64,000 nucleotides of DNA from a virus, in the IMG/VR virus record IMGVR_UViG_3300047157_000152, positions 3,725 through 67,724 of that record; one strand, written 5' to 3'. Of the stretch, positions 2,613 to 63,711 are shown piece after piece. The notes beneath the pieces were generated by a model. It was not told the DNA's origin. It ran no database searches and was given only the letters and a program-made list of their open reading frames with translations. The position numbers and the translations under genes are program-made. The first letter of the stretch is position 1, and the number at the start of each line of letters is the position of its first letter.

Positions 2613-2785
2613 TAATAAGGTAATTTTTTAGGATTAGCTAAGAAGTATCTTATATCAGATAGTTGTTCTTCTAATGTTTCAATACGTACTAGCATTTGTT
2701 TTAATGTGTATTTTTCACCGTCCATATGTGATTTAACACCACCTGTAAGGTTACCTATATCCACGATTGTATCTTGTTTAAACAT
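2612..2785 (-). CDS. Hypothetical protein (probable start MFKQ at 2785)
   Basis: ORF track; start reassigned to the ATG 5 nt downstream of the repeated promoter motif. Confidence 0.6.
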   Translation of the reverse strand: MFKQDTIVDIGNLTGGVKSHMDGEKYTLKQMLVRIETLEEQLSDIRYFLANPKKLPY

Positions 2786-2790
2786 ATTAT

Positions 2791-2821
2791 TATTATCCAT
2801 CATGTTTCGTATTTAGTTTGT
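2791..2821 (-). promoter_or_regulatory. Early promoter-like motif ACAAACTAAATACGA-N8-GGATAATA, copy 1
   Basis: Exact match to repeated motif, 5 nt upstream of an ATG. Confidence 0.8.
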
Positions 2822-3299
2822 AATTTTCTTCTGCATGACTATCTACTAAAAACTTTTCAGTCCAGTTAGTATAGCCCATGTTTTTCTGCTTATATCTATA
2901 TATAAGTTTATCAGGTGTGCCAACAAATTCGCAAACGTTAGTGTATTGATTATAAGCACTTAACCATACATCAGGCTTACCTGTCCATATAATCCACGTA
3001 TATTCATGATCTACAGCGTCAACATTAGGATATAAGTATTGACTATTGTAGTGAAAGTCATGTACTAAATGTGATGCTATTCTTGAGCCATCACCAAAGT
3101 TAGTAAAACCTCTGTATTCTTGCATGTGTTTAATCCAGTTTGCAAGCTCTATGCCTCTCCACTCAGGATAACCGTCGTGGTGCAGATACATATGAACATA
3201 AGCTTTATCACTTACCAATTGAGGTTTAAGTGCAAAGCCTGCTTCATGATCTTCTGCGTGTGACCTATCGATCACTAGTGTCATATTTCTTGTACTCAT
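2793..3299 (-). CDS. Hypothetical phage protein (Y.H.DGYP motif)
   Basis: ORF track, 168 aa. Confidence 0.7.
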   Translation of the reverse strand: MSTRNMTLVIDRSHAEDHEAGFALKPQLVSDKAYVHMYLHHDGYPEWRGIELANWIKHMQEYRGFTNFGDGSRIASHLVHDFHYNSQYLYPNVDAVDHEYTWIIWTGKPDVWLSAYNQYTNVCEFVGTPDKLIYRYKQKNMGYTNWTEKFLVDSHAEENYKLNTKHDG

Positions 3300-3460
3300 T
3301 ATACTAGTTCTTCACCTATACTGACTATTTCAGCGATTATTAATACTGCTACACCTATTGGCAATGATGACAATAGGATGCTAAAGCCCATGACTCTAAT
3401 CACTGACTTAGCTAAACTCACCTTAAAATGAGGTGTAAGTTTACTTTTAAATCTACTCAT
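3299..3460 (-). CDS. Small membrane protein (53 aa)
   Basis: Manual translation MSRFKSKLTPHF...; hydrophobic C-terminal half. Confidence 0.55.
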   Translation of the reverse strand: MSRFKSKLTPHFKVSLAKSVIRVMGFSILLSSLPIGVAVLIIAEIVSIGEELV

Positions 3461-3481
3461 ATTATTATTATTTAATGTTAG

Positions 3482-3554
3482 TTGACTCGCCAGGGCTCGA
3501 ACCTGGACTCTTCTGGACCAAAACCAGACGTGTTGCCAATTACACCACGAGTCA
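3482..3554 (-). tRNA. trnQ: tRNA-Gln(TTG)
   Basis: Cloverleaf: TGACTCG/CGAGTCA acceptor, TCTGG-TTTTGGT-CCAGA anticodon arm, GGTTCGAGCC T-arm; CCA not encoded. Confidence 0.93.
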
Positions 3555-3559
3555 TTATG

Positions 3560-3790
3560 CTAATCTAATAGCACTTGGTAAGCTTTAGGATTAGCTTTTC
3601 TAAACCAATCTAAGCCTTTTCTTGTTAAATCGTACTTTTGTACGAGTTGTGAACCCATAATTAAGTCATACATACTTAATTCTAAGTTGTTTAGTTCGTA
3701 GGTGTCGCCTGAAAAAGGGTTTGTCACTGTTTCGCCTTTGTCGTATATCGTACCGTCGAACCATTTAGGTAATGTTGTTTTGTTTTTCAT
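3560..3790 (-). CDS. Hypothetical protein
   Basis: ORF track, 76 aa. Confidence 0.7.
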   Translation of the reverse strand: MKNKTTLPKWFDGTIYDKGETVTNPFSGDTYELNNLELSMYDLIMGSQLVQKYDLTRKGLDWFRKANPKAYQVLLD

Positions 3791-4019
3791 AATCTAAGTA
3801 ATCTATTCTTTCGTGATCTATTTCTATTAATTTTGCTATGTAATCCCACACTTCACGTTGTTGTTTTGTGTGTCTCAATACACCTTCTAGTTGGTCTATT
3901 GTTATAAAAGGCGTGTTATCATCTTTTATTTCTTGCTTTAGCCTGCTAATGTCAGTGTCTAGACTGTATACATTAGCAAATGCTTTGTCATGTGCTAAGT
4001 TTTTTACTCTTGTAGTCAT
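3765..4019 (-). CDS. Hypothetical protein
   Basis: ORF track, 84 aa. Confidence 0.65.
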   Translation of the reverse strand: MTTRVKNLAHDKAFANVYSLDTDISRLKQEIKDDNTPFITIDQLEGVLRHTKQQREVWDYIAKLIEIDHERIDYLDYEKQNNIT

Positions 4020-4020
4020 A

Positions 4021-4254
4021 TTATTTATTGATTATAGAGTTACCATACATTAAGTCTTGAGCAGACAATTTGTAAGTTGGTATGTCACAGTAAACTGATA
4101 TATCAGATACTTGACTAACCGTTAAGTCATACCATGATGTTTGAGACATAAGAGTATACTTAAGCCTTTTAGCACTAGAGTATTTTCTAGCGTTTTTTTG
4201 CAGTGACGACTTGAAACCTGGTTTTAGTCTGTCATAAATTGTTTTGATCTTCAT
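4021..4254 (-). CDS. Hypothetical protein
   Basis: ORF track; ATG 5 nt after promoter motif. Confidence 0.65.
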   Translation of the reverse strand: MKIKTIYDRLKPGFKSSLQKNARKYSSAKRLKYTLMSQTSWYDLTVSQVSDISVYCDIPTYKLSAQDLMYGNSIINK

Positions 4255-4259
4255 ATTTA

Positions 4260-4290
4260 TATTATCCGTGTTAATTCGTATTTAGTTTGT
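4260..4290 (-). promoter_or_regulatory. Early promoter-like motif, copy 2
   Basis: Exact motif match. Confidence 0.8.
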
Positions 4291-4509
4291 AAATTCATGT
4301 GCTTCAAACCTTTGTTTCTCTTTGTCTATTATATCACCGATGTGATCTTGCATTGCTACAATATCCATCGCTAACAATTGTAGTTCAGCTAAACCATTAA
4401 CCTCATGAACACTCATGTACTCATTTAAGTCATTGTTTTGAAGAGCAATAACACAGTCTTCTAAATCTCTTGCAGTATTTTCAAACCTGCAATAACTCAT
4501 ATTTCCCAT
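4282..4509 (-). CDS. Hypothetical protein (NMSYCRFENT motif)
   Basis: ORF track, 75 aa. Confidence 0.7.
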   Translation of the reverse strand: MGNMSYCRFENTARDLEDCVIALQNNDLNEYMSVHEVNGLAELQLLAMDIVAMQDHIGDIIDKEKQRFEAHEFTN

Positions 4510-4530
4510 ATTTAATTTATTTAATGTTAG

Positions 4531-4602
<72 letters not shown>

Positions 4603-4607
4603 TTTAG

Positions 4608-4706
4608 TGGAAGTGGGCGGAGTCGAACCGCCGTTATCTTAATCAGTTGCTTGCTCTGTAGCTTTCGCCGTGCGTTACTGATTCAAGATCTTACCTTATC
4701 ACTCCC
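4608..4706 (-). ncRNA. Miniature tmRNA-like RNA (tRNA-like domain only, 99 nt)
   Basis: GGGAGTG/CACTTCC acceptor with G3:U70, A discriminator, A8U9..GG..GA stemless D-loop, long helix ATCTTGAATCAGT/ACTGATTAAGAT, AAC linker, T-arm GGCGG-TTCGACT-CCGCC. Confidence 0.7.
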
Positions 4707-4710
4707 TTAT

Positions 4711-4900
4711 GAGAGGCACCAGTTGTGGACAGGTAGTTACCTAGTATTGTCATTTATCCACAATTTCTGTTTTGTACTGTACGGTAGACTACCGCACCGA
4801 TCGCTAACGTGACCTGTATGCCGCCGTCTCTCTGCTAGCTATTCACTTATGTGGTGGACTTACGCAATTTAAATGCCACCCTATTAAGCTACTCGTCCTG
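4711..4900 (-). ncRNA. Putative structured ncRNA of unknown class
   Basis: GC-rich intergenic stretch with nested helices (GGTGG/CCACC, GTGCGGTA/TACCGTAC, TTGTGGATA/TGTCCACAA, GAGAG/CTCTC). Confidence 0.5.
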
Positions 4901-5089
4901 CTACTTTCTACGCCAGGCTTTGTGTACTTGATCACTTAGTTCTTGACTTACTATTTGTATTTCTAGAACTTGTTTGTTAGCAATAATAGGTACATAGCTA
5001 TATTGCTTTGTTGAACTACAGTTTACACAATTTGAATAACCTAATGCTATTCTGCCTGCTGGTATTTTGTTATTACATTTACATCTCAT
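4901..5089 (-). CDS. Small C4 zinc-finger protein, DksA/TraR-finger-like
   Basis: C.C...IP..R..L....C..C pattern. Confidence 0.6.
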   Translation of the reverse strand: MRCKCNNKIPAGRIALGYSNCVNCSSTKQYSYVPIIANKQVLEIQIVSQELSDQVHKAWRRK

Positions 5090-5094
5090 ATTAT

Positions 5095-5125
5095 TATTAT
5101 CCGTTTACAATCGTATTTAGTTTGT
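5095..5125 (-). promoter_or_regulatory. Early promoter-like motif, copy 3
   Basis: Exact motif match, ATG 5 nt downstream. Confidence 0.8.
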
Positions 5126-5225
5126 AATTGAATCGTCTGTAGTATTCTACTTCTAATCTTTCCGCTTCATACTTAGTTATTTTAAGCAGTTTAATGTGCT
5201 TATGTCTTAGTTTTCTAGTCTTCAT
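5097..5225 (-). CDS. Small basic hypothetical protein (42 aa)
   Basis: Manual translation MKTRKLRHKHIK... Confidence 0.45.
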   Translation of the reverse strand: MKTRKLRHKHIKLLKITKYEAERLEVEYYRRFNYKLNTIVNG

Positions 5226-5418
5226 CTAATCCTGTATGTAATTTTTCTATTGTAGCACACATAATCATGTGCATTAATTGGTTGTACTCGTCGCCTTCTA
5301 GTTTGTCATGATCTAGTTCTGAACCATCAATAGCCCACTGAACAGAGTCATATAACGTTTCTTTGATGTAAGCGACTTGAGCGTCTGCTATTTCATCTAT
5401 AATTTTCATTTTACTCAT
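5215..5418 (-). CDS. Hypothetical acidic protein
   Basis: ORF track. Confidence 0.65.
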   Translation of the reverse strand: MSKMKIIDEIADAQVAYIKETLYDSVQWAIDGSELDHDKLEGDEYNQLMHMIMCATIEKLHTGLDED

Positions 5419-5675
5419 GCTTTATTTATTATTTTTAATTGTTTTAAGTCGTATTTCTGTGTATTATCACGCCACATTTTGTGCATTGTGTACTTACTTG
5501 ATTGAGTATACGATGTTTTACCGCGTGTTTTTACATTATTCCATTCACGATCGGTCAAACCACTGCATTCACCATGCACTTTGTTGAGTTCGTAGTGCTG
5601 AAAAGCACGTTTACGTCTGCTATTTTTAGAGTATTCTAGTAACTCACGCATATTCTTACACATATATTCTATCAT
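5415..5675 (-). CDS. Hypothetical protein
   Basis: ORF track. Confidence 0.6.
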   Translation of the reverse strand: MIEYMCKNMRELLEYSKNSRRKRAFQHYELNKVHGECSGLTDREWNNVKTRGKTSYTQSSKYTMHKMWRDNTQKYDLKQLKIINKA

Positions 5676-5802
5676 TTATGCGATAAAACGATGTGTAGTC
5701 TGTGTACTCTATGTTTTGACGTAGTGGAGTAAGCACTTGGTAACCTTTGTCTGTTTCTAACAGTACATTACCTGTTTCTTGATTGAATTTAATTTGTTTC
5801 AT
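5656..5802 (-). CDS. Small hypothetical protein (48 aa, MKQIKFNQETG...)
   Basis: Manual translation; ATG 7 nt downstream of promoter copy 4. Confidence 0.6.
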   Translation of the reverse strand: MKQIKFNQETGNVLLETDKGYQVLTPLRQNIEYTDYTSFYRINDRIYV

Positions 5803-5809
5803 ATACTTA

Positions 5810-5840
5810 TATTATCCGTTGTTATTCGTATTTAGTTTGT
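5810..5840 (-). promoter_or_regulatory. Early promoter-like motif, copy 4
   Basis: Exact motif match. Confidence 0.8.
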
Positions 5841-6246
5841 AATTTCTGATATAAAAGTCAAGCATAAATTTCATTCTTGCCATAGTGTTCCATATTTTAA
5901 CTCTAGTGTACTATTGTAGATATATGTTTTAAGTTTACCTTCGTCAGTTAAAAACATTTGTCTACGCTCTGATTTGTACACTGGATTTAGTTGATAGTTA
6001 GATGAGCAAGAGTTTACATTTCTTACATAACCTGATTTATACACCTGCTAGTCTTAGTTTATTTTTAGACCATAGTTGGCCACCTTTTTCTTGATGGTAC
6101 AGGAAATTCAAACTCTCTTGTACCATTTTTAGCTTGACGCTGTGTTGTGACTTCTTTGATATTATACTCGACTAGTAGTCGTCTAGCGAACGCATTTTCA
6201 AGCGATTCTTGTTCGAGTTTCCATGTTTGATTTCTTTATTATCCAT
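5812..6246 (-). pseudogene. Multiply frameshifted ORF (pseudogene or sequencing indels)
   Basis: Protein-like segments (MDNKEI / WKLEQESLENAFARRLL...PVP / KNKLRLA / VYKSGYVRNVNS... / MARMKFMLDFY) lie in successive different frames. Confidence 0.5.
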
Positions 6247-6260
6247 TGTAGTAAGGTTTA

Positions 6261-6458
6261 TTAATTAGTATTAAAGTTAATTGATTTAGCTACATTTTGT
6301 CGCCATTGCCACTCATTCTTGCGATACTCATAGCTATTACACCATTTTTTGACAGCAGTTACTTGTGGTATTTCACCGTATTTTGCTTCATAGTCAAGAC
6401 ATTGTTGTAACTTTGCTTTGATTTCTGAAGCGGGATAGTCTACATATTGTTTATTCAT
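6261..6458 (-). CDS. Hypothetical protein (probable start MNKQ at 6458)
   Basis: ORF track; ATG 5 nt after promoter copy 5. Confidence 0.65.
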   Translation of the reverse strand: MNKQYVDYPASEIKAKLQQCLDYEAKYGEIPQVTAVKKWCNSYEYRKNEWQWRQNVAKSINFNTN

Positions 6459-6463
6459 ATTAT

Positions 6464-6494
6464 TATTATCCATTAGTAGTCGTATTTAGTTTGT
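6464..6494 (-). promoter_or_regulatory. Early promoter-like motif, copy 5
   Basis: Exact motif match. Confidence 0.8.
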
Positions 6495-6605
6495 GTGTTA
6501 GTACAATACCTTCTACATCTGTTCTTGTTAGTTCATCACTCATTTGTTTGAGTATTGCCCAAGTAAGATCTACTTTACCATAATGTGTATTTAAAGTGTA
6601 TATCA

Positions 6606-6806
6606 TTAGTTATATATTCCAAAGTTAGCATTAGCGGTATCTATTTCACCTGTTAATAATCCTACTATCATAAATAGTATACCTGATAGTGCTAGTGGTA
6701 GCAATGTACCAAAAGCTATTAGTTCTAGTATTACTAGATGTAGTGGTTTAGATTTTACGTATTTAGTTACGGCAGGGATAAATCCTCTGAATTTAAAGTT
6801 TTTCAT
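6606..6806 (-). CDS. Small membrane protein
   Basis: ORF track; long hydrophobic segment. Confidence 0.6.
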   Translation of the reverse strand: MKNFKFRGFIPAVTKYVKSKPLHLVILELIAFGTLLPLALSGILFMIVGLLTGEIDTANANFGIYN

Positions 6807-6988
6807 ATTATTATTATTTAGTTTATTAGTGAAATTCGTTATAGATTGATAGAACTTGTGATTGTTCTTGTTTAGTTAAGTTGAAGACATTTTTGTCTGG
6901 AAATAGTTTGTGCGCTATTCTGATTAAAGCGGATTGATTATACATATTATTATATTTAAAAGTTATTGACAACACTTTGTTATCTTAG

Positions 6989-7029
6989 TTGACATGGTGA
7001 GAATCGAACTCACATAAACCATTATGTCA
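6989..7029 (-). ncRNA. tRNA minihelix-like element (acceptor stem + T-arm only)
   Basis: TGACAT..ATGTCA stem, GTGAG-TTCGATT-CTCAC T-arm, discriminator A then CTA as in the other tRNAs here. Confidence 0.55.
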
Positions 7030-7090
7030 TTTACTCATTCGCATTTTTATACTTATAGAAACAAGTGGAACTTAAAGTGGTAGTTAGTTG

Positions 7091-7318
7091 TTATACTAAC
7101 TCTACATTTCTTAGTGCAACTGGAATATTATTAGTTGCAGTGTAAGACTTGTATTTTTGAAAGCAATTCATACTTTGTAACTTAGATTTCATGATGTTGA
7201 ACGCTATGTCATGATTGTAAGTGTATGTGATACCTTTCTTGTTAGTAAATTCTATTACTACATTTTTTCCGATTAGTGACTGTCTGATGACAAATCTTTT
7301 TGATTTTAAATTACTCAT
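7091..7318 (-). CDS. Hypothetical protein, first gene of early block
   Basis: ORF track, 75 aa. Confidence 0.7.
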   Translation of the reverse strand: MSNLKSKRFVIRQSLIGKNVVIEFTNKKGITYTYNHDIAFNIMKSKLQSMNCFQKYKSYTATNNIPVALRNVELV

Positions 7319-7363
7319 ATTATATTTATTTATTTATTATTATTATTAGTTGTTTTACATTTA

Positions 7364-7394
7364 TATTATCCAATACACATCGTATTTAGTTTGT
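7364..7394 (-). promoter_or_regulatory. Early promoter-like motif, copy 6
   Basis: Exact motif match. Confidence 0.8.
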
Positions 7395-7590
7395 ATTAAA
7401 TTTCTTACTTTGATTAATATGAAATTGTAGAAGTTGTTTACTATTTAATTTATTTAGTGATTTATCTACTGTTACAAAATGTATTTTATTATTTTTCATT
7501 GGTGTATATTTATTTGGTAGTTAATATTAGTTGAATGGTATACCACACTCATTCTTGTAAGTAATATACTTTATTAATTACTTACATATA

Positions 7591-7620
7591 TATTATCCAA
7601 GTATACTGTAGTTAGTTTGT
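7591..7620 (-). promoter_or_regulatory. Early promoter-like motif, copy 7 (degenerate, 1 nt shorter)
   Basis: ACAAACTAACTACAG-N7-GGATAATA. Confidence 0.65.
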
Positions 7621-7802
7621 AAAATGTAAAACATAAATAGTAAATACGAAAAAACTGGAAAAGGCGAAAACTTTTTTGGAAAAACTGAAAATGCATGGCT
7701 GGCCCCCGATTTAAAAACGATTTTGCGTAACGATCTGATAATCAGCAGGATAGGGGTAACACCATACTTCTATATAACCGACACTTTTTCAGAATGAAAA
7801 CA

Positions 7803-28139: not shown

Positions 28140-28649
28140 ATGGGAAAATATAAACATAAAGGTATCGGGAGAAACATTTCTATTTCAGGTGGTAGGGAAA
28201 GAGCAGATTTATTTAAAGACATGTCTGGTGGATATAATGCTATGGGTGATTCTAATGATCCAAGCCCACTTTATAATTATGGTGGTAATTCTGTAGCAAA
28301 AAGATATTCTAAAGGTCCATTAGAATTAACAGCTGAGGGTAAGAAAAAAATATTAGCTAGTAGTGCAAACCCTGAGTTTAAATCAGCTATAGCTAAACAA
28401 CCTGTAGAAATGAAAGGATCACATTCACCTATGTACAAATCAAGCTGTACGAGTGGGGGAAGTTCTAGATCACCTTACAAAGCAATAGGAGATCCTAATA
28501 AGAAAATGGACAGATTATCTGCTAAACATAAAGCACTTTATGACCGTTTTGAAATGGGTCAAACCAGCGAGGCTGAAGAACAAAAAATGTACAGACTAGA
28601 AGATCGCATGGATAAAGTAGGTAAAAAAATAAAAAAGAAGAAAAAATAA
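28140..28649 (+). CDS. Hypothetical basic protein with SPL/SPM/SPY repeats
   Basis: ORF track. Confidence 0.65.
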   Translation: MGKYKHKGIGRNISISGGRERADLFKDMSGGYNAMGDSNDPSPLYNYGGNSVAKRYSKGPLELTAEGKKKILASSANPEFKSAIAKQPVEMKGSHSPMYKSSCTSGGSSRSPYKAIGDPNKKMDRLSAKHKALYDRFEMGQTSEAEEQKMYRLEDRMDKVGKKIKKKKK

Positions 28650-63060: not shown

Positions 63061-63711
63061 TTATTTTGTTATTTTATCGTTATACAAATGTAAGTTATGT
63101 GCGAAATGGTAGTATGTACCGATCTCATATCCTGTCCTCTCTGCAACTAATTCCTGTAGCTTTGAAAAACAATACTGATCATTACAGAAACCGTACCAGA
63201 GATCGTTAGATCGCATTACAACTGACATATTTAGTTTATTGTTTAACACGGTAAACTGAACTGCATAAGTACAAGGTGTATCTTTAGCATATGTGCTATG
63301 CTCTTTACCATCATATATACTTATTGCAGCATGTCTAGTGTTAGGATTATCTTTTAGTTTTGCAACTACATAATCTAGTTGATAGTTACGTTCCCATTGC
63401 CAACCGTAGTTAGATCTTACCTCATTGTTACTGTCAACCATTCGTTTCCATATTTCAGGTACTTTACCGTATATATCTCCTAGTTTATCTACATTAGGAT
63501 TACCTGATAAGTACCATTGCCATTCAGCCTCTGCATATTCATCATTCCAGTTTCTGTGTTCAGCTAGTATATGATTATACATAGGTTTTTCAATATAGAA
63601 ACCTATATTAAATAAAGCCATTGTATTATCAAACTTAACACCATCCCACATTATTTTAGGAAAAAAATAATTAAAAGCATCGCTTGCTGTTTCAAATTTT
63701 GTTTTTATCAT
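63061..63711 (-). CDS. ThyA-fold enzyme, dCMP hydroxymethylase/methylase-like
   Basis: E..WY, IW, SNYGW, D.PCT..VQF, MRSND..YGF.ND, NLHLY; Asp at the nucleotide-specificity position. Confidence 0.8.
   Translation of the reverse strand: MIKTKFETASDAFNYFFPKIMWDGVKFDNTMALFNIGFYIEKPMYNHILAEHRNWNDEYAEAEWQWYLSGNPNVDKLGDIYGKVPEIWKRMVDSNNEVRSNYGWQWERNYQLDYVVAKLKDNPNTRHAAISIYDGKEHSTYAKDTPCTYAVQFTVLNNKLNMSVVMRSNDLWYGFCNDQYCFSKLQELVAERTGYEIGTYYHFAHNLHLYNDKITK

What the first reader, a model, noticed from the sequence alone, without database searches (positions are those of the whole stretch)
4608..4706. 99-nt tmRNA-like RNA with the tRNA-like domain but no mRNA-like domain
Seen (minus strand): GGGAGTG ATAAGGTAAG ATCTTGAATCAGT [29 nt] ACTGATTAAGAT AAC GGCGG TTCGACT CCGCC CACTTCC A. 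It has G3:U70 and an A discriminator (alanine identity), A8-U9 instead of tRNA U8, a GG..GA D-loop, a long helix replacing the anticodon arm and a 3-nt linker to the T-arm. These match the tmRNA tRNA-like domain, but the roughly 250-nt pseudoknot/tag region is reduced to 29 nt. That loop reads GGC GAA AGC TAC (G-E-S-Y), reminiscent of the start of Bacteroidota tags (GE.NY), possibly a vestige or chance. It lies 5 nt upstream of tRNA-Met in one apparent transcript. Inference: an alanylatable SmpB/EF-Tu-binding RNA that could block trans-translation (decoy) or rescue ribosomes without tagging. Tag-less tmRNAs are established for some mitochondria; I do not know of one from phage.
Basis: partly seen in the sequence, partly recalled or inferred. 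Interest (0 to 1): 0.85.

Follow-up and report, generated by a model that had tools for sequence, protein, structure and literature searches.

The report
Phage tag-less mini-tmRNA gene
This marine phage carries a 99-base gene for only the alanine-accepting, tRNA-like end of the bacterial ribosome-rescue RNA (tmRNA), a kind already known from one mycobacteriophage, here with a swappable hairpin insert, and it probably interferes with the host's rescue-and-tagging system.

Summary
Window 4706-4608 (minus strand) is a 99-nt RNA gene with a 7-bp acceptor stem (G3:U70, A73), a D-loop without a D-stem, a 12-bp helix capped by a 29-nt loop, a 3-nt linker and a canonical T-arm. Rfam's tmRNA model fits it end to end at 36.5 bits (cut-off 47). 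The tRNA model gives 18.9 bits, and ARAGORN calls nothing.

It belongs to a large family in uncultured marine phages of Flavobacteriia. I extracted 93 distinct elements. The long helix covaries strongly. Twenty-two of 22 near-complete genomes that carry the element have no full-length tmRNA.

The kind is not new. Mycobacteriophage DS6A has a published "TLD only" tmRNA with the same architecture, and this scan has already reported other phage mini-tmRNAs. The "G-E-S-Y tag vestige" is chance.

New here: the cap of the long helix is filled by many different small hairpin modules (53 sequence clusters in 93 elements). The same modules recur in neighbouring non-tRNA-like RNAs of the same early RNA operon.

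The most likely function, by inference, is competition with host tmRNA for SmpB, AlaRS and EF-Tu. I found no evidence of expression, charging or binding.

The parts
4608..4706 (-). whole 99-nt mini-tmRNA (TLD-only) gene
   Evidence: R1 72.5 bits; RF00023 36.5 bits
4700..4706 (-). acceptor stem, 5' strand (nt 1-7), with G3
   Evidence: 7 pairs; G3:U70 in 75 of 77 aligned family members; pair 4:69 covaries (CG 48, AU 22, GC 6, UA 1)
4690..4699 (-). D-loop analogue (nt 8-17): A8, U9, GG, no D-stem
   Evidence: alignment to the tmRNA consensus; A8, G12, G13, T14 and G17 at least 90% conserved
4677..4689 (-). long helix (P2-like), 5' strand (nt 18-30)
   Evidence: all 6 tested pairs show changes on both sides across the family
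4648..4676 (-). 29-nt apical loop, the exchangeable 'cargo' module; not coding
   Evidence: same module in L014 and L089, on two scaffold types, with indels of 2 and 1 nt
4636..4647 (-). long helix, 3' strand (nt 60-71)
4633..4635 (-). AAC linker to the T-arm (nt 72-74)
   Evidence: A72, A73 and C74 at least 90% conserved
4616..4632 (-). T-arm (nt 75-91): 5-bp stem and 7-nt T-loop
   Evidence: stem pairs 2 and 3 covary; the other pairs were fixed by the search pattern
4609..4615 (-). acceptor stem, 3' strand (nt 92-98), with U70
4608..4608 (-). discriminator A73; CCA is not encoded (CTA follows)
   Evidence: The tmRNA gene of one Bacteroidetes MAG and that of Cellulophaga phage phi38:1 also lack an encoded CCA
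4530..4602 (-). tRNA-Met(CAT), 5 nt downstream, same strand
4711..4901 (-). two further structured RNAs directly upstream on the same strand (about 4901-4834 and 4833-4711); both are conserved in relatives and carry variable inserts
   Evidence: flanks of 12 loci; boundaries approximate
5071..5131 (-). promoter-like repeat copy that heads this transcription unit; the next copy is at 4236-4296
   Evidence: 6 copies of a 61-nt repeat in 2700-7700. Promoter function is inferred

Best explanation
The element is a TLD-only (tag-less) mini-tmRNA. It is a phage gene descended from tmRNA that keeps the alanine-type acceptor stem, the D-loop analogue, the T-arm and the base of helix P2. It has lost the tag reading frame and all pseudoknots. 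Shown here: the fold, its homology to tmRNA, purifying selection on the tRNA-like part, covariation in the helix, absence of a reading frame, absence of a full tmRNA and of SmpB in the phage, and its place in a run of small RNAs next to tRNA-Met. Inferred: it is transcribed early as part of a multi-RNA precursor, cut out by host RNase P and a 3' tRNA-processing enzyme, and given CCA. Host AlaRS then charges it with alanine through G3:U70 and A73, and host SmpB and EF-Tu bind it. It would then compete with host tmRNA. That would lower tagging and degradation of proteins from stalled ribosomes, or add untemplated alanine without a degradation tag. The apical part of the long helix is a tolerated insertion site that carries one of many exchangeable hairpin modules.
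For: The tmRNA model fits globally at 36.5 bits against 18.9 for the tRNA model.

Family members run from 26 to 65 bits with RF00023. Two short ones (80 and 140 nt) pass the 47-bit cut-off.

On an alignment not fitted to the structure, 77 family members give 92.0% paired cells against 73.3% in shuffles. The covariation score is 0.373 against 0.088, and 0 of 500 shuffles reach it. Slid controls give at most 50.3% paired. All 6 helix pairs have double changes.

G3:U70 occurs in 75 of 77 members. It also occurs in all 15 hits of a pattern that left the acceptor stem's 3' strand free, and in all 4 hits in bacterial-genome contigs.

A 243-nt phage tmRNA with a tag frame (L041) has the same acceptor sequence as the commonest mini scaffold. 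The cultured relative phi38:1 has a full tmRNA at 87.6 bits.

All 22 of 22 element-bearing genomes that are at least 90% complete have only the short form. G000 has no SmpB gene.

DS6A's published TLD-only gene has the same layout and scores 43.2 bits.

Published work, seen as passages only: a TLD-like molecule strongly inhibits tmRNA, perhaps by titrating SmpB (PMC4131195, citing Mao 2009). SmpB with a TLD fragment supports polyalanine synthesis in vitro (PMC3929946).
Against: The Rfam score is below the cut-off, and ordinary tRNA-sized hits reach about 28 bits with the same model.

The D-loop and junction differ from those of the tmRNAs of two Bacteroidetes MAGs that hold related elements. 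Binding to host SmpB is therefore an assumption.

A contig of a close relative joins 4604 to 4905, so the mini and the upstream RNAs are dispensable there.

Two of 77 members have A3:U70 and should not be alanine acceptors.

The modules in the helix cap are themselves conserved. They recur in other RNAs, so the selected function could lie in the cargo.

Much of the invariance of the T-arm and the 3' acceptor strand was imposed by my search patterns.
Confidence: 0.6

Rival explanations
1. Scaffold reading. The tRNA-like domain serves mainly as a processing and stability chassis (cut by RNase P and 3' tRNA enzymes, nuclease-resistant) that displays a functional hairpin module. The biology lies in the module, for example a protein or RNA decoy, and not in trans-translation.
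For: There are 53 module clusters among 93 elements, and 8 clusters occur on both main scaffold types. Forty-five of 93 modules have a near-identical stretch of 20 nt or more outside any tRNA-like element. Modules occur as free hairpins, inside another scaffold RNA, and nested in each other. One module keeps two invariant internal-loop strands in 13 distinct instances while its closing stem changes.
Against: This reading does not explain why G3:U70, A73, the GG of the D-loop and the G...AAC junction are kept almost without change. Nor does it explain minimal members, such as a 63-nt element whose helix is capped by a simple tetraloop. DS6A-type RNAs act on tmRNA without cargo.
Confidence: 0.2
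2. Helper reading. The RNA rescues stalled ribosomes for the phage without tagging. Ala-TLD with SmpB accepts the nascent chain, once or repeatedly, so that ribosomes are freed and phage proteins are not marked for degradation.
For: The structural evidence is the same as for the best explanation. SmpB with a TLD fragment supports polyalanine synthesis without template in vitro (PMC3929946 passage). Tag-less tmRNAs persist with SmpB in mitochondria and some plastids (PMC11915505 passage).
Against: Without a stop codon there is no known way to terminate and release. The only in vivo result reported for such a molecule is inhibition. Two of 77 members lack G3:U70.
Confidence: 0.15
3. A degenerate, intron-bearing or D-arm-less canonical tRNA (for example tRNA-Ala).
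For: It has a tRNA-like acceptor stem and T-arm and sits next to a tRNA.
Against: ARAGORN makes no call. The tRNA model gives 18.9 bits against its 29-bit cut-off. The region where an anticodon arm would sit has a different length and sequence in each of 53 clusters, with no conserved 7-nt loop. The linker is 3 nt.
Confidence: 0.03
4. A still-coding miniature tmRNA whose loop encodes a short tag (G-E-S-Y-R-A-S-N-stop in the window).
For: The frame is open for 8 codons and ends in TGA in the window (read). A Bacteroidetes MAG tmRNA has the tag GEESYALAA.
Against: The same module has a 2-nt indel in L014 and a 1-nt indel in L089 inside this frame. Other members carry unrelated modules. There is no nucleotide similarity to two Bacteroidetes tmRNAs.
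Confidence: 0.02
5. A fragment of the host ssrA gene carried as a phage attachment site.
For: Phages often integrate into tmRNA genes (statement in PMC11590407 passage).
Against: Both halves of the acceptor stem are present and pair with each other. There is no tyrosine integrase in G000. The sequence differs from the tmRNA 3' ends of the two Bacteroidetes MAGs examined.
Confidence: 0.01

Closest known systems
'TLD only' (CDS-less) tmRNA of Mycobacterium phage DS6A (tmRNA Website tmID 11587; Hudson, Lau & Williams 2014, PMC4131195; Mao et al. 2009, not held)
   Same: Both are phage-encoded. Both have an acceptor stem with G3:U70, a D-loop analogue, one helix capped by a short loop, a short linker, a T-arm, discriminator A followed by CTA rather than CCA, and no reading frame. 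DS6A at 28478-28560 scores 43.2 bits with RF00023, against 36.5 here.
   Different: The host phylum and phage lineage differ. The D-loop here is more derived: DS6A keeps the tmRNA-type GGT..TCGAC. The helix and cap are longer (55 nt between D-loop and linker), and the cap is one of many exchangeable modules. There is no wet-lab result for this family.
Standard bacterial and phage tmRNA (Rfam RF00023), e.g. that of Cellulophaga phage phi38:1 or of the 243-nt phage gene in L041
   Same: The tRNA-like domain is shared. L041 has the same acceptor sequence as the commonest mini scaffold. phi38:1 is a capsid-level relative, and its gene is also followed by CTAA.
   Different: The element has no tag frame and no pseudoknots. 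It is 99 nt, against 243-400 nt for the full-length genes seen here.
Mitochondrial tmRNA (RF02544) and the ~65-bp CDS-less plastid tmRNAs (PMC11915505)
   Same: They are tmRNAs reduced to the tRNA-like domain, without a tag frame (passage).
   Different: They are organellar and usually permuted. RF02544 finds nothing in G000.
Bacterial Y-RNA-like YrlA tRNA mimics (PMC4201824, search listing and abstract start only)
   Same: A tRNA-like module is joined to a long helix that carries another functional part.
   Different: As I recall it, not from a call, YrlA has its ends in the long helix and binds Ro60. Here the ends form the acceptor stem. No Rfam family other than tmRNA matched.

Membership tests
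tmRNA (RF00023, full form) | 7-bp acceptor stem with G3:U70 and discriminator A | tested here: met
tmRNA (RF00023, full form) | D-loop analogue without a D-stem, T-arm with canonical T-loop, helix P2 between them | tested here: met
   alignment; covariation of the helix
tmRNA (RF00023, full form) | mRNA-like domain with resume codon, tag frame and stop | tested here: not met
   no conserved frame; indels of 1 and 2 nt in the same module
tmRNA (RF00023, full form) | pseudoknots PK1-PK4 | tested here: not met
   only 29 nt lie inside the helix
tmRNA (RF00023, full form) | Rfam gathering score of 47 bits | tested here: not met
   36.5 bits; two relatives pass at 65 and 52.7 bits
TLD-only (CDS-less) tmRNA, DS6A type | tmRNA tRNA-like domain present, coding part and pseudoknots absent, phage-encoded | tested here: met
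TLD-only (CDS-less) tmRNA, DS6A type | alanylation by AlaRS | not testable with these tools
   the identity elements G3:U70 and A73 are present; no assay
TLD-only (CDS-less) tmRNA, DS6A type | binds SmpB and inhibits host tmRNA | not testable with these tools
   known only from passages citing Mao 2009; the D-loop differs from the Bacteroidetes tmRNAs examined
canonical tRNA (RF00005) | cloverleaf with D-stem and anticodon arm; score of 29 bits or more | tested here: not met
   18.9 bits; no ARAGORN call
mitochondrial tmRNA (RF02544) | match to the model | tested here: not met
   no match at E up to 1

The most novel reading that the evidence does not exclude
The mini-tmRNA is one of several scaffolds in a phage early RNA operon. 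These scaffolds display a shared, horizontally exchanged library of small structured hairpin modules. The tRNA-like domain would act as a natural 'tRNA scaffold', either stabilising its module or carrying it to SmpB and stalled ribosomes. The modules would be the adaptive, fast-swapping parts, for example decoys for host factors or defences.
Probability: 0.2. Interest if true: 0.8.

Novelty: new variant of a known kind. Interest (0 to 1): 0.5.

Why it matters
Trans-translation is the main ribosome-rescue pathway of bacteria. A phage RNA that plugs into it would be a compact host-takeover tool. The DS6A case was a single example. Here the same design is fixed in a whole clade of abundant marine phages of Flavobacteriia, and in place of a full tmRNA, which argues for a selected function.

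The exchangeable modules in the helix cap recur in neighbouring RNAs. That points to a modular RNA toolkit in phage early regions which standard annotation does not see. The family offers dozens of natural variants for testing what a tRNA-like domain alone does on SmpB and the ribosome.

Tried and rejected
**Expression.** One run search found 20 rows that hold part of 3400-5400, and 6 of them are on record as RNA. I laid four RNA runs. All are contigs, and they cover coding and non-coding parts of relatives at 90-99% likeness. Only one run (X16) covers part of the element, and three do not. This shows neither transcription nor its absence. No ends or CCA can be read from contigs.

**Prevalence in the clade.** Seventeen records chosen by capsid similarity, 40-83% complete, had no R1 match. 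A positive control rang in 5 of 5. None of the 17 holds the neighbouring early ORF either, so the early region may simply be missing. The result is uninformative.

**Cultured relatives.** The 3' half of the element and a type-2 element found no close match in GenBank phage records. R1 gave only weak hits of 28.2 bits or less in Maribacter phage Panino, an elemo phage, a spring-water podovirus and phi38:1. ARAGORN calls no tRNA at two of them, which I looked at.

**Antisense idea.** The duplex energy of the 29-nt loop with two Bacteroidetes tmRNAs equals that of shuffled loops: -20.7 against a mean of -20.6, and -20.0 against -20.5.

**Tag vestige.** Rejected.

**Sigma-70 promoter and terminator scan of 4200-5400.** At background level.

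**First distant BLAST of the region.** It found only tRNA-Met look-alikes. In Dulem virus 40 it also found a tRNA-Tyr whose first seven bases equal those of the element. I do not read this as homology.

**Literature.** Searches for 'tmRNA-like' with bacteriophage, for mini/minimal/TLD-only/tagless/truncated tmRNA, and for Cellulophaga with phage and tmRNA found no description of this marine family. Mao et al. 2009 is not held, and I know it only through citing passages. Supplementary files were not opened, so tables of phage tmRNAs there may list related genes.

Full report
**What is there.** In order it has:
- a 7-bp acceptor stem with a G3:U70 wobble
- A8-U9 and a 10-nt purine-rich loop with GG, but no D-stem
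- a helix of 13 against 12 nt with one bulged G
- a 29-nt loop
- an AAC linker
- a 5-bp T-stem with a 7-nt T-loop
- the 3' acceptor strand and a discriminator A

CTA follows, not CCA. tRNA-Met(CAT) starts 5 nt further on. The minimum-free-energy fold returns this structure at -31.1 kcal/mol, z = -3.61, and 0 of 200 shuffles fold as well. ARAGORN calls nothing here.

**Which model fits.** At permissive thresholds Rfam's tmRNA model aligns end to end (positions 1-374) at 36.5 bits, with the whole middle of the model deleted. That is below the 47-bit cut-off. The tRNA model gives 18.9 bits against a 29-bit cut-off. The mitochondrial tmRNA model finds nothing. With the same tmRNA model, tRNA-sized hits in bacterial genomes reach about 28 bits. 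The single score is therefore suggestive and not decisive.

**The genome.** G000 is a 67.7-kb IMG/VR virus record rated complete. It encodes a terminase, a portal protein, virion proteins, a GroEL-like protein and ribonucleotide reductase. All 85 GenBank phage records that match its 498-aa virion protein are phages of Flavobacterium, Cellulophaga or Maribacter, except one uncultured podovirus, at under 60% identity. G000 has no SmpB gene, no tyrosine integrase, and no tmRNA hit other than this element. The element lies in a block of small minus-strand ORFs punctuated by six copies of a 61-nt promoter-like repeat. One copy, at 5071-5131, heads this unit, and the next is at 4236-4296. Early transcription is inferred from this layout.

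**Relatives.**
- A pattern made of the D-loop and the T-loop found 15 stretches in viral contigs. All have the same two ends, an unrelated but still pairing middle, and G3:U70.
After extraction by acceptor pairing I had 114 distinct sequences. Sixteen had no 5' partner strand within 260 nt of the 3' end. Of these 16 loci, ARAGORN called a tmRNA in 5 and none in 11.
- After dropping six tRNA-like or odd rows (L043, L066, L070, L101, L104, L110), 91 short elements remained. With two more found by the covariance model, that makes 93.
- By acceptor sequence: 59 begin GGGCGTG, 24 begin GGGAGTG (the window's type), 6 GGGGGTG, 2 GGACGTG and 2 GGGTGTG.

**Covariation.** I aligned 77 of the 79 elements of at most 112 nt with MAFFT. 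L051 and L060 were left out because I had extracted them wrongly. On this alignment, which was not fitted to any structure, the 18 pairs of acceptor stem, helix base and T-stem are 92.0% paired, against 73.3% in shuffles and at most 50.3% when slid. The covariation score is 0.373 against 0.088, and 0 of 500 shuffles reach it. All six helix pairs show all four Watson-Crick types. Acceptor pair 4:69 and T-stem pairs 2 and 3 covary. G3:U70 occurs in 75 of 77, and the other two have A3:U70. U70, the T-loop and the outer T-stem pairs were fixed by the search pattern, so their invariance says nothing.

**Copy number.** The model built from this alignment (R1) scores the window's element 72.5 bits. 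It finds only one other weak match in the window, 18 bits at 6989-7111. Over 100 loci it finds 94 matches, usually one per locus and two in L017, L029 and L085.

**Link to tmRNA.**
- A 243-nt phage gene (L041) that ARAGORN calls a tmRNA, with tag ANKNQFALAA, has the acceptor sequence of the commonest mini scaffold.
- Some short members keep a tmRNA-type D-loop. One is a 63-nt element whose helix is closed by a tetraloop.
- With RF00023, the short elements in 50 element-bearing viral records score 26-65 bits. An 80-nt and a 140-nt member pass the cut-off. No match is longer than 188 nt. All 22 of 22 records that are at least 90% complete therefore have the short form and no full tmRNA.
- The cultured capsid-level relative Cellulophaga phage phi38:1 has a full tmRNA at 87.6 bits, also followed by CTAA.
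- I read the mini form as a reduction of a phage tmRNA.

**Distribution.** Forty-one of 50 element-bearing records, and 20 of 22 near-complete ones, encode a homologue of the window's virion protein at 53-95% identity. This is essentially one phage clade. In 185,579 bacterial and archaeal species genomes a loose pattern gave 10 stretches, of which 4 are true elements. Two lie in Bacteroidetes MAGs and two on small contigs of a MAG labelled Aliivibrio. The tmRNAs of the two Bacteroidetes MAGs (tags GEESYALAA and GTNNYALAA) have other acceptor sequences and a longer D-loop. The mini is therefore not a copy of those host domains.

**Not coding.** The same loop module occurs in L014 (same scaffold) and L089 (the other scaffold). 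It has a 2-nt and a 1-nt indel inside the supposed G-E-S-Y frame. It has no similarity to the tag regions of the two Bacteroidetes tmRNAs.

**Precedent.** In passages I read, Hudson, Lau and Williams list 'Mycobacterium phage DS6A (TLD only)'. They state that a similar molecule, chargeable or not, strongly inhibits tmRNA, perhaps by titrating SmpB, citing Mao et al. 2009 (PMC4131195). The 2025 database paper repeats this and adds ~65-bp CDS-less plastid forms (PMC11915505). I located the DS6A gene at 28478-28560, at 43.2 bits. It has the same architecture, including A-CTA at the 3' end. Himeno et al. report that SmpB with a TLD fragment supports polyalanine synthesis in vitro (PMC3929946, passage). 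This scan has also reported phage TLD-only mini-tmRNAs on other DNA several times. The kind is therefore known.

**What is new in this family.** The 93 caps fall into 53 sequence clusters, and 8 clusters occur on both main scaffolds. Forty-five of 93 caps have a stretch of 20 nt or more, at 85-100% identity, outside any tRNA-like element in the fetched loci. These copies are free hairpins, inserts in another conserved scaffold RNA upstream of the mini-tmRNA, or nested inside other modules. One module keeps two invariant internal-loop strands in 13 distinct instances, 9 in the tRNA-like scaffold and 4 elsewhere. Its closing stem changes, and its tip is either an 8-nt capped hairpin or a nested insert of 49-114 nt. 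The outer helix and the inner module swap separately.

**Mechanism.**
- Shown: the fold, the homology, selection on the tRNA-like part, and the lack of a frame, of SmpB and of a full tmRNA.
- Inferred: early transcription with the neighbouring RNAs, excision by tRNA-processing enzymes, CCA addition, alanylation through G3:U70 and A73, and binding of host SmpB and EF-Tu. The RNA would then compete with host tmRNA, or add alanine without a tag.
- Against: the derived D-loop, the two A3:U70 members, a close relative whose contig joins 4604 to 4905 and so lacks the cassette, and the conserved cargo.
- I put the decoy or competitor reading at 0.6, the scaffold reading at 0.2 and the helper reading at 0.15.

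Noticed in passing
window 4711-4901 (minus strand); L004-L018 flanks: Directly upstream of the mini-tmRNA lie two further structured RNAs, at about 4901-4834 and 4833-4711. Both are conserved in relatives, and each has a conserved frame and a variable insert. In other loci up to two more end-paired RNAs sit between the mini-tmRNA and tRNA-Met. Together they form an early operon of 3-6 small RNAs.
   Followed up: partly
L088:8500-8655, L100:5040-5250, L018:5825-5890 and 6139-6215, L017:258-330: The hairpin modules that cap the mini-tmRNA helix also occur as free hairpins, inside the other scaffold RNAs, and nested in each other. Forty-five of 93 caps have a near-identical copy outside tRNA-like elements.
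   Followed up: partly
window 4604-4905: A contig of an RNA-library run joins 4604 to 4905 with two other letters between. A close relative therefore lacks the 300 nt that hold the mini-tmRNA and both upstream RNAs.
   Followed up: no
window 2767-7400: There are six copies of a 61-nt repeat at 2767, 4236, 5071, 5786, 6440 and 7340. In several copies it ends at or overlaps an ATG on the minus strand. It is probably the early promoter.
   Followed up: partly
window 6989-7111 (minus strand): A weak tRNA-like match: R1 gives 18 bits and the tRNA model 15.3 bits. It has a good T-arm and a short acceptor stem. A look-alike lies in L005 and L010.
   Followed up: no
L246 (Cellulophaga phage phi38:1, 26803-27164) and L134 (Maribacter phage Panino): phi38:1 has a full tmRNA whose ARAGORN-predicted tag is an unusual 22 residues. 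In Panino, ARAGORN calls a permuted tmRNA overlapping tRNA-Asp and tRNA-Thr, which may be an artefact.
   Followed up: no
G041 (record of L065 and L078), 379-485 and 63129-63235: In this complete genome the mini-tmRNA lies inside the direct terminal repeat, so it is present twice per linear molecule.
   Followed up: no
L138 (Maribacter phage Panino, 4942-5031): A 90-nt tRNA-like RNA not called by ARAGORN. It has no G3:U70 and carries a hairpin similar to one of the cap modules of the marine family.
   Followed up: no
G003 (MAG labelled Aliivibrio), many small contigs: There are at least five sub-threshold tmRNA-model hits of 72-96 nt on small contigs. This suggests that phage contigs of this clade were binned into the MAG.
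   Followed up: no
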